From Candidatus Aminicenantales bacterium (GTDB lineage Bacteria > Acidobacteriota > Aminicenantia > Aminicenantales > UBA4085): a stretch of DNA of 31,711 bases. Position 1 is the stretch's first letter. Each line of letters starts with the position of its first letter. The position numbers and the translations under genes were made by a program. The notes beneath the pieces were generated by a model, which had not been told where the DNA came from, did not search any database, and was given only the letters and a program-made list of their open reading frames with translations. Shown here piece after piece: positions 6,599-31,711 of this stretch. The stretch is taken from contig JBEKTZ010000015.1 in NCBI GenBank assembly GCA_049515535.1, positions 62,001 through 93,711 of the forward strand. The letters run 5' to 3'.

Positions 6599-6868
6599 CT
6601 AGAGGGAATTCTTGAACTGGCGGCTGGGGTTGAACTTGATCCTTTTCTTGCTGGGGATGGCGATCGTCTCTCCCGTTTTCGGGTTCCGGCCTTTTCGCGC
6701 TTCCCGGGTTTTGACCTCAAAGCTCCCGAAGCCGGAAAAGTTCACTTTGCATCCTCGTTTGAGGTCCTCTCTGATCAAATCGAGAAGCGCGGCGAACGCC
6801 TTTTGGGACTGCTGGAGCGTGATGCCGGCGTCTTTGGCCATGCGCGCGGTGATATCTTTTTTTCCCAT
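6599..6868 (-). CDS. hup: HU family DNA-binding protein
   Basis: GGAGG RBS before ATG 6868. 89 aa with GFGSFEVKTREARKGRNPKTGETIAIP. Confidence 0.93.
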   Translation of the reverse strand: MGKKDITARMAKDAGITLQQSQKAFAALLDLIREDLKRGCKVNFSGFGSFEVKTREARKGRNPKTGETIAIPSKKRIKFNPSRQFKNSL

Positions 6869-6951: not shown

Positions 6952-7017
6952 TCAAGGGACGAGCCTTCGCGGCGGAAATGGGCCCCCGGGCAAAGCCCGG
7001 GGCCCCAGCCGCCGTCG
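6952..7017 (+). repeat. 66-bp palindromic element, copy A (intergenic)
   Basis: TCAAGGGACGAGCCTTCGCGGCGGAAATGGGCCCCCGGGCAAAGCCCGGGGCCCCAGCCGCCGTCG is 61/66 identical to the reverse complement of 30122-30187. Confidence 0.9.
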
Positions 7018-7070
7018 CGGCCCGACCACCGAACATTTTTAATCTGCGCGTCGGGTTCCGGGTGACAAGG

Positions 7071-7220
7071 AGAACGGGTGACGCCGATCAGGGCGCCCCA
7101 TTTTATTAATAGGGTTTAGCCGCAAAATTGCGTTCACGAGATGCTCCAGGGAAGGGTGGCAGGGAGCGAAGCTCCCGTTGGAGGGAAACCCCAAAAAGGG
7201 TTTTCCTCCAAGAGTGACCG
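7071..7220 (+). repeat. ~150-bp multi-hairpin dispersed repeat, copy 1
   Basis: Core 7108-7220 matches 11883-11995 with 7 mismatches in 113 bp. Weaker similarity extends left to a shared AGAACGGGTGACGC. Confidence 0.92.
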
Positions 7221-8336: not shown

Positions 8337-8484
8337 TGCTCCGAAGACGCGTACCTTTTTCGGGGCCCCTCCTGGCTAAAGGAGGGGAAGGGGAGGTGAT
8401 ATCAATAAGAAGATGTGTTATCCGCGTCTTCGGAATAAAATGTGCTCCGAAGACGCGTACCTTTTTCGGGGCCCCTCCTGGCTA
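8337..8484. repeat. MITE/REP-like unit with inverted repeats, plus a tandem partial copy
   Basis: Identical 42-bp direct repeats at 8337-8378 and 8443-8484. 12-bp inverted repeat TCCGAAGACGCG (8340-8351) / CGCGTCTTCGGA (8423-8434). Internal hairpin CCCCTCCT-GGCTAA-AGGAGGGG. Confidence 0.85.
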
Positions 8485-11774: not shown

Positions 11775-11842
11775 TAAAGGACACGGCTGACCGTCGGACA
11801 GTTTCCAAGACGAGGTTTCGAAATGAGTAACGGGGGGATAGA

Positions 11843-11995
11843 AGAACGGGTGACGCTGTCTGGGGTGCCTCATTATTTAGTAAATAGAGTCTAGCCGCAA
11901 AAATGCGTTCACGAGATGCTCCAGGGAAGGGCGGCAGGGAGCGAAGCTCCCGTTGGAGGGAAACCCAAAAAAGGGTTTCCCTCCAAGAGTGTCCG
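11843..11995 (+). repeat. ~150-bp multi-hairpin dispersed repeat, copy 2
   Basis: Direct repeat of 7071-7220. Hairpins GGGAGC-GAA-GCTCCC and TTGGAGGGAAACCC-AAAAAA-GGGTTTCCCTCCAA. Confidence 0.92.
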
Positions 11996-28312: not shown

Positions 28313-29457
28313 AAAATATCCTGTTCGTTTCCCATTCTTCCGAACTCAACGGCGCCGAGCTCTGGCTGTTCGATATCCTGAAACGGCTCGACCGCGGGAT
28401 TTATGCTCCGTTTTTGATCGTTCCGCGGCCGGGACGGCTCGCAGAGGCCGCCAAGGAGATCGGGGTCGAGACCCGGGCCGTTCCCATGAAATGGTGGATC
28501 ACGGAGAAATCCAGGATCTGGCGGCAGCCCATCGGCCGGGCCTTGAACGGGCGAAACGTCGGACGGATCGCGAAGATCATCGCCGAGAAAAAAATCGATC
28601 TGGTCTTCACGAATTCGGCGGCGGTGAACGCCGGCGCCAAGGCCGCCGCGAGGATGGGCGTTCCCCACGTCTGGGCGGTTCACGAGGTTCTGGGCGGGGC
28701 GAATCCTTTTCTTTTTCATATCTTCGGCCGCCGGGCGCTCGCGAATTTCATCGTGAAAAGCTCGGCCCGGATCATCGTCAATTCGGAAATCTCCAAGGCG
28801 GCTTTTCCGAATGCTCCGAAGGTCGTCCTGGTTGACAACGGCATGGAGATGAAAAGCGGTGATGAAGGCCGGCCGGAGACGCTTCGCCGCGAATTCGGAA
28901 TTCGGGAGGGCGATCTGGTGGCCGGGATCGTCGGGAAGCTCTACGCGGGCAAAGGCCAGAGAGAGGCGATCATGGCCGCGGCGCTTCTCAAATCGTCATT
29001 TCCTCGGCTGAAATGGCTCATCGTCGGCGAAGCCCGAGACGCGCGCTACCATCGCCGGCTGAAAAATCTCGTCAAGGACGGCGGACTCGACGATCGGGTC
29101 ATTTTTACCGGTTATCGGCCGGATCTCATCGATGTTCTGAAAATCATGGATGTTCTGGTCGTCGCCTCCGTGGTCGAATCGTTCGGGAGGGTCGCCTTGG
29201 AGGCGATGGCCGCGGGTGTGCCCGTCCTGGCCGTGCGGGCCGGGGGGCTTCCCGAGATCGTCCGCCATGGGCAGAACGGCTTTCTTTTGGATTCGCGCGA
29301 CCCCCGCGTCATCGCCCTCGGCCTGGAATACATTTTCCAGAATCCCGATAAGGCGAAAGAAGCCGTCGCGGGCGGGAGACGGACCATTCTCGAGCGATTC
29401 ACTCTCGAACGGCAGATCCGGGAGGTCGAAAGAGTCCTGGATGAAAGCCTGGTCTAG
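28309..29457 (+). CDS. GT4 family glycosyltransferase
   Basis: ATGA overlap with the previous stop. ILFVSHSSELNGAE, KGQ, ESFGRVALEAMAAG. Confidence 0.92.
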   Translation: MKNILFVSHSSELNGAELWLFDILKRLDRGIYAPFLIVPRPGRLAEAAKEIGVETRAVPMKWWITEKSRIWRQPIGRALNGRNVGRIAKIIAEKKIDLVFTNSAAVNAGAKAAARMGVPHVWAVHEVLGGANPFLFHIFGRRALANFIVKSSARIIVNSEISKAAFPNAPKVVLVDNGMEMKSGDEGRPETLRREFGIREGDLVAGIVGKLYAGKGQREAIMAAALLKSSFPRLKWLIVGEARDARYHRRLKNLVKDGGLDDRVIFTGYRPDLIDVLKIMDVLVVASVVESFGRVALEAMAAGVPVLAVRAGGLPEIVRHGQNGFLLDSRDPRVIALGLEYIFQNPDKAKEAVAGGRRTILERFTLERQIREVERVLDESLV

Positions 29458-29460
29458 GGC

Positions 29461-30405
29461 ATGGAATTATCCATCATCCTTGTCAGCTATAACGACCGGA
29501 GGCACATCGAAGCCTGTCTTTCTTCGCTCCAGGAGAACGTTCCGTCCGTCGAACACGAGATCATCGTCGTGGATAACGCGTCCACGGACGGCAGCCGGGA
29601 ATTGATCGCCCGCTCGTTCCCGGCCGTCCGTTTGATCGCGAACGCGGATAACGCCGGCTTCTCGCGGGCCAATAATATCGGAGCGAAGGAAAGCCGCGGC
29701 GAGTTCTTGCTCTTTTTGAACACGGATACGGTCGTCACCCCCGGAAGCATCGGCGGTTGGCTTGATCATCTCGGCGCCGACCCGTCCATCGGCGCGGCGG
29801 GCCCGGCCCTCCTTCGGAAGGGCGGAGCCGTCCAGGTTTCTTTCGGGAAAAAGGTGAATTTCCCCGCTCAGCTTTGGCAGAAACTCTTCCTGAACCCGGT
29901 TTACGGACGCCTCCTGAAAAAGAGCGCCGGGACGCGAAGCGTCGGCTGGCTGAGCGCTGCCTGCCTCCTCTGCCGCCGGAAGGCGTTCGAGCAAGTAGGA
30001 GGGTTCGACGAGAATTTTTTCATTTATTTCGAAGACATCGATCTCTGTCTTCGGCTGCGGGAAGCCGGCTGGAAGCTCGTCTATATTCCGGGAACCAGGA
30101 TATTTCACGAAGGGGGAGCGACGACGGCGGCCGGGGCCCCGGGCTTTACCCGGGGGTCCACTTCCGCCGCGAAGGCTTGTCCCTTGACATCGCCGCGCCG
30201 GGACTTCAGCCGCTATCAATATCGCAAAAGCCAATTGTCTTTTTATCGCAAACACAGCCCGGGAATATCCTTGAGCCTTCTTCGCGCCTCCCTGAAGGTG
30301 AAGCTCGTGTTTCTTTTCATCCGGGGCGCGTTCCGCGGCGAAGAAGGCGCCCGGCTGCGGCGCCTGTATCGGGAGCTGTTGAGAAAGGACCCTGAGCGAG
30401 GATGA
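29461..30405 (+). CDS. GT2 family glycosyltransferase (WbbL/RfbF-like) carrying an in-frame palindromic insertion
   Basis: LSIILVSYN, VVDNASTDGS, NAGFSRANN, FLNTD, GGFDENFFIYFEDIDLC, HEGG. Confidence 0.92.
   Translation: MELSIILVSYNDRRHIEACLSSLQENVPSVEHEIIVVDNASTDGSRELIARSFPAVRLIANADNAGFSRANNIGAKESRGEFLLFLNTDTVVTPGSIGGWLDHLGADPSIGAAGPALLRKGGAVQVSFGKKVNFPAQLWQKLFLNPVYGRLLKKSAGTRSVGWLSAACLLCRRKAFEQVGGFDENFFIYFEDIDLCLRLREAGWKLVYIPGTRIFHEGGATTAAGAPGFTRGSTSAAKACPLTSPRRDFSRYQYRKSQLSFYRKHSPGISLSLLRASLKVKLVFLFIRGAFRGEEGARLRRLYRELLRKDPERG
30122..30187 (-). mobile_element. 66-bp palindromic element, copy B, inverted and in frame within the GT2 gene
   Basis: Reverse complement TCAAGGGACAAGCCTTCGCGGCGGAAGTGGACCCCCGGGTAAAGCCCGGGGCCCCGGCCGCCGTCG is 61/66 identical to 6952-7017. 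The repeat is observed; mobility is inferred. Confidence 0.8.
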
Positions 30406-31547
30406 GGAAGATCCGGATTCTCGAGATGATCGACAAGCCCTTTTTGGGCGGGGGGCAGGTCCATTTGCTAACGCTCGTCAAGAATTTGGATAAAAGCCGG
30501 TTCGAGATCATCGTCGCGGCGAAAGGCGGAAAGCCCCTCGAAGATGAAGTCCGCCGCGCCGGAATCCCGTTCATGCCTGTTTCGCTCGGCAAGAAGATCA
30601 GCCTTCGAACGGGCAAAGACATCGCCGACATCCTCAAGGGAAACGAGATCGATATTCTGCATACGCACGGCGGCGTGGCCGGCGTCTTCGGCCGCTGGGC
30701 GGCCGGAAAGGCCGGAACTCCGATCATCGTCCACACGCTCCACGGCATCCACTATCTGCATTACCGCAATCCGCTCCTGAAATATCTTTTCGTGCTTCAA
30801 GAGCGGTATTTTTCCCGGCGGTCCGATGCCGTCATTTTCGTTTCCGAAGCGGACCTCGAAGCGGGAAAAAAATTCCGGCTGGCGCCCGAGGGAAAATGCC
30901 GGCTGGTTCGAAACGGCGTGGACGTCGGGGGCCTACGCGATGCCGATATGAGCGCGCGGAAAAGGAGGGAGCTCGCGGCGGCGATGAAACTGTCTCCGCC
31001 CGTCATCGGGACGGTCGCCCGACTGCACCGGCAGAAGGGCGTGGTTTATCTTTTACGGGCCGCCAAGCTCGTCCGGCGCCGGCATCCCGAAGCCAGGTTC
31101 GTCATCGTTGGGGGAGGGCCCCTCGAGAAGAGCCTGCGGCGACGGGCGGGAAAGATGGACCCCGAAGACCATGTCCTGATGCTTGGCGAGCGGCCCGATG
31201 CGCGCGAGATCGTTTCCCTGTTCGACGTCTTTGTCCTGCCTTCGCTGTGGGAAGGGCTTCCGCTCGCCCTCATCGAGGCCGCCGCCCTCGGCCGGCCCAT
31301 CGTCGCCACGGATATCGACGGCGTCCGGGAAGTCATCCGGCCGGGCGATACCGGAGTCCTTGTCCCGGCCAAAGACCCGGCGAAGCTCGCCGAAGCCCTC
31401 AGCCGTCTTCTCGACGACCCGGCGTCGGCCGTGAAAATGGGCGAGCGGGCGAAACGGGAGATCCCTCCGCTTTTCACTCTTTCGGGGATGGTCGAGAAGA
31501 CGCAGCGGATCTATATGGAATTCGCCGCCCGCAAACTCAAAATGTGA
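30402..31547 (+). CDS. GT4 family glycosyltransferase
   Basis: ATGA overlap with the GT2 stop. GGGQVHL, VHTLHG, VARLHRQKG, LPSLWEGLPLALIEAA. Confidence 0.93.
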   Translation: MRKIRILEMIDKPFLGGGQVHLLTLVKNLDKSRFEIIVAAKGGKPLEDEVRRAGIPFMPVSLGKKISLRTGKDIADILKGNEIDILHTHGGVAGVFGRWAAGKAGTPIIVHTLHGIHYLHYRNPLLKYLFVLQERYFSRRSDAVIFVSEADLEAGKKFRLAPEGKCRLVRNGVDVGGLRDADMSARKRRELAAAMKLSPPVIGTVARLHRQKGVVYLLRAAKLVRRRHPEARFVIVGGGPLEKSLRRRAGKMDPEDHVLMLGERPDAREIVSLFDVFVLPSLWEGLPLALIEAAALGRPIVATDIDGVREVIRPGDTGVLVPAKDPAKLAEALSRLLDDPASAVKMGERAKREIPPLFTLSGMVEKTQRIYMEFAARKLKM

Positions 31548-31548
31548 C

Positions 31549-31711
31549 GAGCGGTTCCCCGCGGCAAGCCGCGAGGAACCGCTTGTAGAGGGATCCAAGG
31601 GGGAGCCGCCCCCTTGGTCGCAGTCCTATGCGGAGCATAGGGCGAGAAAGGGAGGCAGGGCGACGCCGTTTTGTACCCTAGAGTACAAAACGGTGTGCCC
31701 GTTGGAAGGGG
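31549..31711 (+). repeat. Dense multi-hairpin element related to the ~150-bp repeat; truncated by the window end
   Basis: Four consecutive hairpins. Shares the scaffold AAGGGNGGCAGGG...CCCGTTGGA with 7152-7182 and 11927-11957. Confidence 0.7.

What the first reader, a model, noticed from the sequence alone, without database searches (positions are those of the whole stretch)
30122..30187. Palindromic element inserted in frame inside a glycosyltransferase gene, with an intergenic twin
Seen: the reverse complement of 30122-30187 matches 6952-7017 at 61 of 66 positions. All five differences are transitions, and the core stem CCCCGGG(C/T)-AAA-GCCCGGGG and outer stem GCGGCGG/CCGCCGT are kept. Inside GT2 the element reads TAAGAPGFTRGSTSAAKACPL. 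GAC occurs at both 30123-30125 and 30186-30188. Deleting the 63 nt from one GAC to the other leaves the frame open as HEGGATTSPRRDFSRYQYRKSQ, which looks like an ordinary GT2 segment. Known: Rickettsia palindromic elements add peptide inserts to intact proteins, and IS200/IS605 ends carry subterminal hairpins recognised by the HUH transposase TnpA. Inference: this is a possibly undescribed non-autonomous element, mobilised in trans, that creates new protein sequence. Its conserved TCAA/TTGA end and CCCCGGGCnnnGCCCGGGG hairpin are reminiscent of IS200/IS605-type ends.
Basis: partly seen in the sequence, partly recalled or inferred. Interest (0 to 1): 0.82.

Follow-up and report, generated by a model that had tools for sequence, protein, structure and literature searches.

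The report
Gene-invading hairpin repeat of Aminicenantes
A 63-base hairpin-forming mobile repeat has recently landed in frame in this sugar-transferase gene and in other genes of an uncultured Aminicenantes bacterium, adding a floppy 21-amino-acid loop; such protein-decorating repeats are known from other microbes, but we found no paper on this family and did not find the enzyme that moves it.

Summary
Confirmed, with corrections. The 61/66 match is real, but the element is 63 nt (30125-30187; twin 6952-7014), and GAC is target-motif overlap, not a duplication. The two copies belong to a family of 126 loci in this genome (63- and 102-nt forms plus nested composites) and occur in 13 of 41 related genomes. 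Anatomy: no terminal inverted repeats, no target duplication, fixed ends TCAAGG...CCGCCG, target R^YSGA. All 24 GT2 orthologues lack the 21 residues, and strains about 97-98% identical carry the empty site in 3 of 4 runs laid, so the insertion is recent. About 18 of 114 copies sit in ORFs; 7 of 7 tested are true in-frame inserts, including the only gltX found. AlphaFold models them as disordered loops. Best mechanism: a non-autonomous element moved as single-stranded DNA by an IS200-type HUH transposase (PATE-like, about 0.6). No autonomous partner was found and the canonical guide rule fails. It behaves like Rickettsia RPEs. Not found in the papers searched; this scan has already noted the same family on other DNA.

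The parts
30125..30187 (-). 63-nt short-form copy of the repeat (reads TCAAGG...CCGCCG on the minus strand), in frame in the GT2 gene; adds 21 residues (A223-T243)
   Evidence: ends; orthologues; empty alleles
30137..30155 (.). Core hairpin of the GT2 copy (8-bp stem, 3-nt loop); similar to right-end hairpins of IS200-type elements in the same order
30125..30169 (.). Outer stem (30125-30130 pairing with 30164-30169) enclosing the core hairpin; forms the end that always abuts the target motif
30121..30124 (-). Target-derived bases (TCGT on the minus strand; family consensus YSGA), not part of the element
30188..30188 (-). Target-derived purine before the element (G on the minus strand; G 100, A 13, C 1 of 114 copies)
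29461..30405 (+). GT2 family glycosyltransferase, 314 aa (293 without the insert), in a GT4/GT2 cluster; invariant His216 lies 6 residues before the insert
6952..7014 (+). Intergenic 63-nt copy of the same repeat, target A^TCGC, 84 nt upstream of the HU gene start
6599..6868 (-). HU DNA-binding protein gene (neighbour of the intergenic copy; not part of the element)

Best explanation
The segment is a recent insertion of a small, non-coding, non-autonomous mobile element that is abundant in some Aminicenantia genomes (shown). It inserts without duplicating its target, at R^YSGA, always with the CCGCCG end against the YSGA motif (shown). In this genome the two main forms are 63 and 102 nt and most frames are open, so copies that hit a gene keep the frame; those that land in tolerant surface loops survive, the rest are purged (counts shown, selection inferred). 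It most likely moves as single-stranded DNA: an HUH tyrosine transposase of the IS200/IS605 type, supplied in trans, binds the GC-rich hairpin, cuts at R^Y junctions, and joins the element 3' of a TCSR tetranucleotide on the strand that reads CGGCGG...CCCTTGA (inferred; enzyme not identified). The added peptide is probably a near-neutral disordered loop (modelled); in the GT2 it sits where GalNAc-T2 has its active-site flexible loop, so an effect on activity is possible (inferred).
For: 126 loci, 114 with both ends, mean identity to consensus 96%. Sharp ends fixed by 3 nested 165-nt copies inserted at the element's own G^TGGA, by an insertion in an IS91-like gene and by empty alleles. No TSD, no TIR, one-sided motif, repeated in other genomes. 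On the other strand the layout is TCSR | element ... TTGA |, the IS200/IS605 polarity, and the mixed R^Y letters are what base-pair recognition with G-T wobble would give (inference). Core hairpin matches 19 of 20 nt of right-end hairpins of TnpA-only elements L196/L197 (E 0.02) and L213 (E 0.006). Two copies keep the same TTGA-side junction as L068 but have the other junction moved to an upstream TCGA (L312, L334), as one-ended attack on a new target would give. 18 of 114 copies are inside called ORFs against 74% of R^YSGA sites. In-frame inserts confirmed for 7 of 7 hosts tested. Inserts modelled as low-confidence loops on intact folds.
Against: No transposase gene flanked by these ends in the own genome, 5+5 element-bearing genomes, 30 Y1 loci from 251 genomes, or 234 sampled element starts. 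The guide rule, which holds by eye for several IS200 elements, gives no match here: the four bases 5' of the core hairpin do not predict TCSA or TTGA on either strand. The IS200 types with the most similar hairpins sit in genomes such as G009, G013 and G032 that gave no match to the repeat. GC-rich palindromes resemble each other easily. Wobble-versus-mismatch counts do not pick an active strand (41 vs 27 and 10 vs 11). The own genome's IS200 tnpA has an internal TAA and a different hairpin. No expression data.
Confidence: 0.6

Rival explanations
1. REP-like: mobilised by a RAYT-class Y1 enzyme that reads the TCAA-first strand, where GTGG/GTAG-like bases precede the core hairpin and the adjacent GGAC could guide a G^T cut in the way GTAG guides C^T.
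For: GTGGA (variants GTAGA, GCGGA) lies just 5' of the core hairpin; a 78-nt variant keeps the same R^Y junction with a different 5' end; mosaic nesting resembles BIMEs; RAYT-like genes occur in all 10 element-bearing genome searches; intragenic REPs are known (PMC3733652, PMC6006769).
Against: The RAYT-like genes seen are flanked by GGGG-type terminal inverted repeats (TIRYT/subclass 2.1 in PMC6006769), not by the repeat; 214 of 251 genomes of the class have some Y1 gene, so co-occurrence says nothing; copies are single units with a 5-nt target motif, not inverted doublets; characterised RAYTs cut CT or CA (PMC8266576).
Confidence: 0.15
2. Mobilised by the IS91-like Y2 rolling-circle transposase of these genomes.
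For: Six Y2 matches in the own genome; the repeat lies in or against Y2 gene remnants in G008, G024 and 5 of the metagenome loci; one fixed end beside a target motif with variable other end is IS91-like.
Against: The IS91-like elements end in an AAATTC(C/T)TATC-type ori motif that the repeat lacks; L068 shows a clean insertion into the gene, i.e. it is a target; dead transposase genes are neutral DNA and also hold an unrelated hairpin insert; G014 and G027, rich in the repeat, gave no Y2 match (genomes 92-95% complete).
Confidence: 0.08
3. Spread without a dedicated HUH transposase: by an unrecognised recombinase with a 2-bp GT core, by an RNA intermediate, or by host repair and gene conversion.
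For: GT is present at both junctions in 75 of 114 copies; no partner found; different subfamilies occupy the same site in GT2 and LeuC homologues, which conversion could explain.
Against: 37 of 114 copies have unequal junction dinucleotides, more than the 4% internal divergence explains; IS110 loci show no shared ends; the strict orientation to a 5-nt motif needs a sequence-specific enzyme.
Confidence: 0.13
4. The insert is removed or bypassed at the RNA level, so the protein lacks the peptide.
For: It is highly structured and sits in the only gltX found.
Against: No Rfam intron match; copies in genes occur in both orientations and keep the frame; 101-nt copies in other lineages are seldom in coding context (2 of 32 vs 14 of 63 for 102 nt), as expected if the insert is translated.
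Confidence: 0.03
5. Assembly chimera caused by a repeat.
For: Metagenome-assembled genome; contigs often break in the repeat.
Against: Other assemblies encode the same 314-aa protein with the insert (P0002, P0003 on 12 contigs); run X2 has 99.5%-identical contigs entering the element from both sides; frame kept in 7 of 7 hosts.
Confidence: 0.01

Closest known systems
PATEs (palindrome-associated transposable elements) of Haloquadratum, ends-only IS200/IS605 derivatives (PMC3119063, passages read)
   Same: No terminal inverted repeats, near-terminal palindromes, no target duplication, too short to code, >90% identical copies, strain-specific insertions, targeted by other small elements.
   Different: No cognate IS with matching termini was found; the guide rule is not met; the element has a long nested stem at one end and frequently survives in frame in genes.
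Rickettsia palindromic elements (RPE) and similar coding palindromes (reviews PMC2229807, PMC10969869, passages read; primary papers not read)
   Same: Palindromic repeat, intergenic and in frame in unrelated conserved genes, peptide probably neutral or mildly harmful, mover unknown.
   Different: RPEs are 105-146 bp with terminal inverted repeats; this one is 63/102 nt, asymmetric, has a defined one-sided target motif and is polymorphic between close strains of a free-living anaerobe; no sequence relation was tested beyond Rfam.
REP/BIME/REPIN with RAYT (PMC3733652, PMC6006769, PMC8266576, PMC3116915; passages read)
   Same: GC-rich hairpin preceded by a GTGG/GTAG-like motif, mosaics, occasional intragenic copies.
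   Different: Single units rather than inverted doublets; no flanked RAYT; cut at R^Y, not C^T or C^A.
Small dispersed repeats (SDR) of Nostoc (Elhai et al. 2008; recalled, and named in an earlier scan note; paper not held)
   Same: As recalled: tiny inserts, in frame in genes, nested in each other, mover unknown.
   Different: As recalled: much shorter (about 20-30 nt); not checked.

Membership tests
PATE / non-autonomous IS200/IS605 derivative | No terminal inverted repeats; too short for a transposase | tested here: met
   Ends TCAAGG and CCGCCG; 63-165 nt
PATE / non-autonomous IS200/IS605 derivative | No target-site duplication; insertion next to a 4-6 nt target motif | tested here: met
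   0/114 duplications of 4 nt or more; motif R^YSGA; empty alleles
PATE / non-autonomous IS200/IS605 derivative | Near-terminal palindrome similar to that of an IS200/IS605 element | tested here: inconclusive
   19/20-nt match of the core hairpin to right ends of L196, L197; L213 E 0.006; palindromes match easily and those IS sit in other genomes
PATE / non-autonomous IS200/IS605 derivative | Termini shared with a cognate TnpA/TnpB/IscB-encoding element | tested here: not met
   None found; IscB itself was not searched; draft genomes may lose such elements
PATE / non-autonomous IS200/IS605 derivative | Guide tetranucleotide 5' of the hairpin foot complementary to the cleavage sites | tested here: not met
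   By inspection of the consensus with the rule as recalled and as it fits IS200 ends: no canonical guide for TCSA or TTGA
PATE / non-autonomous IS200/IS605 derivative | Strand-specific cleavage by TnpA | not testable with these tools
   Substitution asymmetry inconclusive
REP/REPIN | GTAG-type tetranucleotide at the hairpin foot | tested here: inconclusive
   GTGG/GTAG/GCGG two bases before the core stem, but embedded in a larger structure
REP/REPIN | Inverted doublets and a RAYT gene flanked by the repeat | tested here: not met
   Single units; RAYT-like genes carry unrelated TIRs; one copy abuts a RAYT start in L155 only
Classical MITE | Terminal inverted repeats and target duplication | tested here: not met
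RPE-like coding palindrome (works-like class) | In-frame insertion in unrelated, otherwise intact conserved genes | tested here: met
   GT2, GltX, LeuC-like, AOR, iPGM, LptC/LptA, histidine kinase
RPE-like coding palindrome (works-like class) | Insert is translated and the protein is active | not testable with these tools
   Only indirect: sole gltX found carries it
IS91/ISCR non-autonomous derivative | oriIS motif at one end | tested here: not met
   Resident IS91-like ends share no sequence with the repeat

The most novel reading that the evidence does not exclude
The family is moved by an undescribed single-strand enzyme or an undescribed way of target reading (R^YSGA, no canonical guide), and hits the same protein loops again and again with different subfamilies (two different short-form peptides at the GT2 site, short and long forms at the LeuC-like site, present and absent alleles within one species cluster), so that it acts as a recurring, removable source of loop variation, here in the active-site loop region of a cell-surface glycosyltransferase.
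Probability: 0.15. Interest if true: 0.8.

Novelty: new variant of a known kind. Interest (0 to 1): 0.55.

Why it matters
How RPE-like repeats move and why proteins tolerate them has stayed open partly because most examples are old and lack empty alleles. This family is young (96% identical copies), has exact ends, a clear target motif, and present/absent alleles in close strains, including in an aminoacyl-tRNA synthetase and next to a glycosyltransferase's metal-binding histidine. That makes both questions testable: which enzyme cuts it, and what 21 extra residues do to an enzyme. It also matters for annotation: dozens of Aminicenantes proteins will carry this spurious-looking shared peptide. 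The concept is not new, and this scan has already noted the family elsewhere.

Tried and rejected
Autonomous partner: Y1 in own genome (2 matches), 5 rich relatives, 5 further element-bearing genomes (at least one is the same genome as), 251 class genomes with 30 best loci examined of more than 600 matches: no shared ends. TnpB family 0 of 5 genomes. Y2 3 of 5: targets, not partners. IS110 3 of 5: no shared ends. IscB, IS607 serine recombinases and reverse transcriptases were not searched. 234 element starts from 236 loci: none seen to enclose a transposase (output cut, part of the 92 'partial' rows not seen; tblastn with 7 transposase queries over all loci). Plasmids: no match. Viral contigs: 3 matches, none continuing as the element. 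Rfam: no relevant family on 4 loci. Cross-phylum spread: rejected as unsupported; loci whose records are labelled Eubacteriales lie in genomes that match class members, four single hits in other taxa do not continue as the element, and one Spirochaete-labelled contig has a flank like an Aminicenantes locus and may be misbinned. 'Length is always a multiple of three': rejected as general; a 101-nt form is common elsewhere (32 of 142). Active strand from wobble counts: inconclusive. 12 half-copies in the own genome do not pair up around a gene. Expression: no RNA holder listed. X2 contigs enter the element by only 27 and 29 letters, below the tool's 31-letter bridging rule, so they are not counted as bridging. 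Elhai 2008 not held. Supplements of the cited papers (e.g. REP and PATE consensus tables) were not read and figures are not held, so a match to a listed consensus cannot be fully excluded.

Full report
OBSERVATION. The reverse complement of 30122-30187 matches 6952-7017 at 61 of 66 positions, all differences transitions; it is the longest inverted pair in the window and folds better than shuffles (z -2.2 to -4.5). The ORF 29461-30405 is a GT2 glycosyltransferase (PF00535, E 3e-22) that reads through the segment. The twin lies 84 nt upstream of the likely start of an HU gene.

A GENOME-WIDE FAMILY. BLASTN of the window's genome (G000, 3.45 Mb, 94% complete) gave 126 loci; 114 have both ends (my end-calling clipped about six composites early). 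Lengths: 63 nt (53 copies, plus 5 at 62 or 64), 102 nt (40, plus 5 at 101-104), and composites of 128-165 nt (11). The 102-nt form is the 63-nt form plus a 39-nt internal hairpin. Copies average 96% identity to their consensus. The repeat matched 13 of 41 genomes searched, 9 of 24 in the same family, patchily. Named records holding it are mostly Candidatus Aminicenantes; I found no sound evidence for it outside that class (see Tried and rejected).

ENDS AND TARGET. The unit is TCAAGG...CCGCCG. The base before it is G in 100, A in 13, C in 1 of 114; after it come T92/C17, C66/G36/T10, G101, A89: target R^YSGA, the same for both forms and in other genomes. There is no duplication (flank identity 5, 6 and 0 of 114 for 2, 3 and 4 nt) and no terminal inverted repeat. 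GT stands at both junctions in 75 copies, but 37 have unequal dinucleotides, so a strict 2-bp core is unlikely. Three 165-nt copies are long forms nested at the short form's own G^TGGA, which fixes the ends; an insertion in an IS91-like gene of G008 gives the same ends.

THE GT2 INSERTION IS REAL AND RECENT. All 24 best orthologues fetched (of 60 relatives searched) lack exactly 21 residues after HEGGATT (one is truncated later). Contigs of four DNA runs from four studies were laid on 28500-31700: X7 has one contig joining 30122 to 30187 through one letter (net 63 nt less; 46 differences in 1796 letters; 173 letters on the short side); X4 shows the same joint and X3 the plain 63-nt skip (35 and 30 letters on the short side). 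X2, 99.5% identical, has contigs entering the element from both sides but not bridging it. Other assemblies encode the same 314-aa protein (P0002, P0003), though they may come from the same site. A fragment, P0005, has a different variant of the peptide at the same site, with residues that match other subfamily variants; independent insertion or conversion is inferred, from protein only.

OTHER GENES. With an ab initio gene model covering 70% of the genome, 18 of 114 copies lie inside called ORFs against 74% of R^YSGA sites: a strong deficit, read as purifying selection. Fifteen are clearly mid-gene. Seven were tested and all are true in-frame inserts: GT2; GltX (19 of 19 orthologues lack the 21 aa; above the TIGR00464 cut-off; the only match in G000); an aconitase/LeuC-family protein; an aldehyde ferredoxin oxidoreductase; iPGM, 34 aa from the long form; an LptC/LptA protein; a histidine kinase with a 677-aa empty allele. 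A LeuC-like homologue carries the long form at the same site (P0012). BamA has it near the N terminus (not tested against empty orthologues). Frame-keeping length is not universal: a 101-nt form makes up 32 of 142 copies in other sources, and is in coding-like context in 2 of 32 cases against 14 of 63 for 102 nt.

STRUCTURE. AlphaFold2 gives an intact GT-A fold (mean pLDDT 88) with pLDDT below 50 at 225-244 and an intact GltX (89) with 235-256 low; low confidence is expected for columns with one sequence, so this shows compatibility, not disorder. The GT2 profile aligns to GalNAc-T2 ending at query 216 / chain 359 (fold match E 2e-15). His359 binds manganese and residues 362-373 form the flexible loop that switches the enzyme between active and inactive states (PMC4432651, passages). 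The insert is 6 residues after the invariant His216, so it may not be neutral (inference from a distant homologue).

MECHANISM. On the strand reading CGGCGG first, the layout is TCSR | element ... TTGA | Y: a target tetranucleotide on the left and a similar element-borne one at the right end, without duplication, as for IS200/IS605 (PMC6006769, PMC8266576, passages). TnpA-only IS200 elements in the same order have right-end hairpins matching the core hairpin at 19 of 20 nt. In L312 and L334 the TTGA-side junction equals that of L068 while the other junction has moved to an upstream TCGA, which fits one-ended attack on a new target or recombination between two copies. Against: no transposase with these ends was found; the guide rule (recalled in detail; it fits several IS200 ends by eye) finds no guide in the repeat; the look-alike IS types are in genomes without the repeat; strand asymmetry is inconclusive. 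I put IS200-type HUH mobilisation at 0.6, RAYT-type 0.15, unknown recombinase/RNA/conversion 0.13, IS91-type 0.08, RNA-level removal 0.03, artefact 0.01. That it is a mobile insertion is about 0.97.

COMPARISON. It works like Rickettsia RPEs (reviews PMC2229807, PMC10969869, passages) and is built like a PATE (PMC3119063, passages), but fails the tests for cognate termini and guide, for REP doublets with a flanked RAYT (PMC3733652, PMC6006769), and for classical MITEs. It is therefore not filed in any of these families. Paper searches that could have shown it (listings only) gave nothing on Aminicenantes repeats; Rfam gave no relevant match. The library lacks most subscription papers and I read no supplements. 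Earlier notes of this scan describe the same family in this and another genome; they are not independent evidence.

VERDICT. Real, recent, in-frame insertion of an apparently undescribed, asymmetric hairpin element; a new variant of a known kind. Interest 0.55: the concept is known, but exact ends, a target motif, empty alleles in close strains and an insert in the only gltX make it a good system for finding the mover and measuring the cost.

Noticed in passing
window 7059-7220 and 11831-11995: A second repeat family (about 150-160 nt, with a GC/AT hairpin at its 3' end); about 16 loci in the genome.
   Followed up: partly
window 31549-31711: A third hairpin-rich repeat family, about 35 loci; its first hairpin resembles the end hairpins of the IS200 element in L001/L058, so it may be that element's true non-autonomous partner.
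   Followed up: partly
window 8337-8378 and 8443-8484: Exact 42-nt direct repeat 106 nt apart, single locus in the genome.
   Followed up: no
L001 (G000 C9:107983-108345): IS200-type tnpA with one internal TAA, inserted in another transposase-like gene; the same 5 nt stand at both junctions. An intact relative is in L058.
   Followed up: partly
L197, L196, L201-L213: TnpA-only IS200 elements of the order vary in guide and target tetranucleotide in step, a natural series for the guide rule.
   Followed up: partly
L072, L095, L312, L128, L153: A separate 33-37 nt hairpin module inserts in either orientation into the core hairpin of this repeat and into IS91-like genes.
   Followed up: no
G000 C12:61871-62020 and C12:65626-65700: A long-form copy sits directly before the 3' half of a tRNA-Arg-like sequence, and the junction is duplicated 3.7 kb away; may be an integration-site remnant.
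   Followed up: no
L044 (G000 C2:209882-211606): iPGM domains are in swapped order (metalloenzyme part first, iPGM_N last) and the 34-aa insert lies in the linker between them.
   Followed up: partly
L038 / L238-L256: The GltX of this family is short (427 aa without the insert); some relatives have a second, roughly 500-aa GluRS that was not found in G000.
   Followed up: no
L155 and L335: One copy abuts the start codon of a RAYT-like gene; another lies between TIRYT-type terminal repeats with no gene between them.
   Followed up: no
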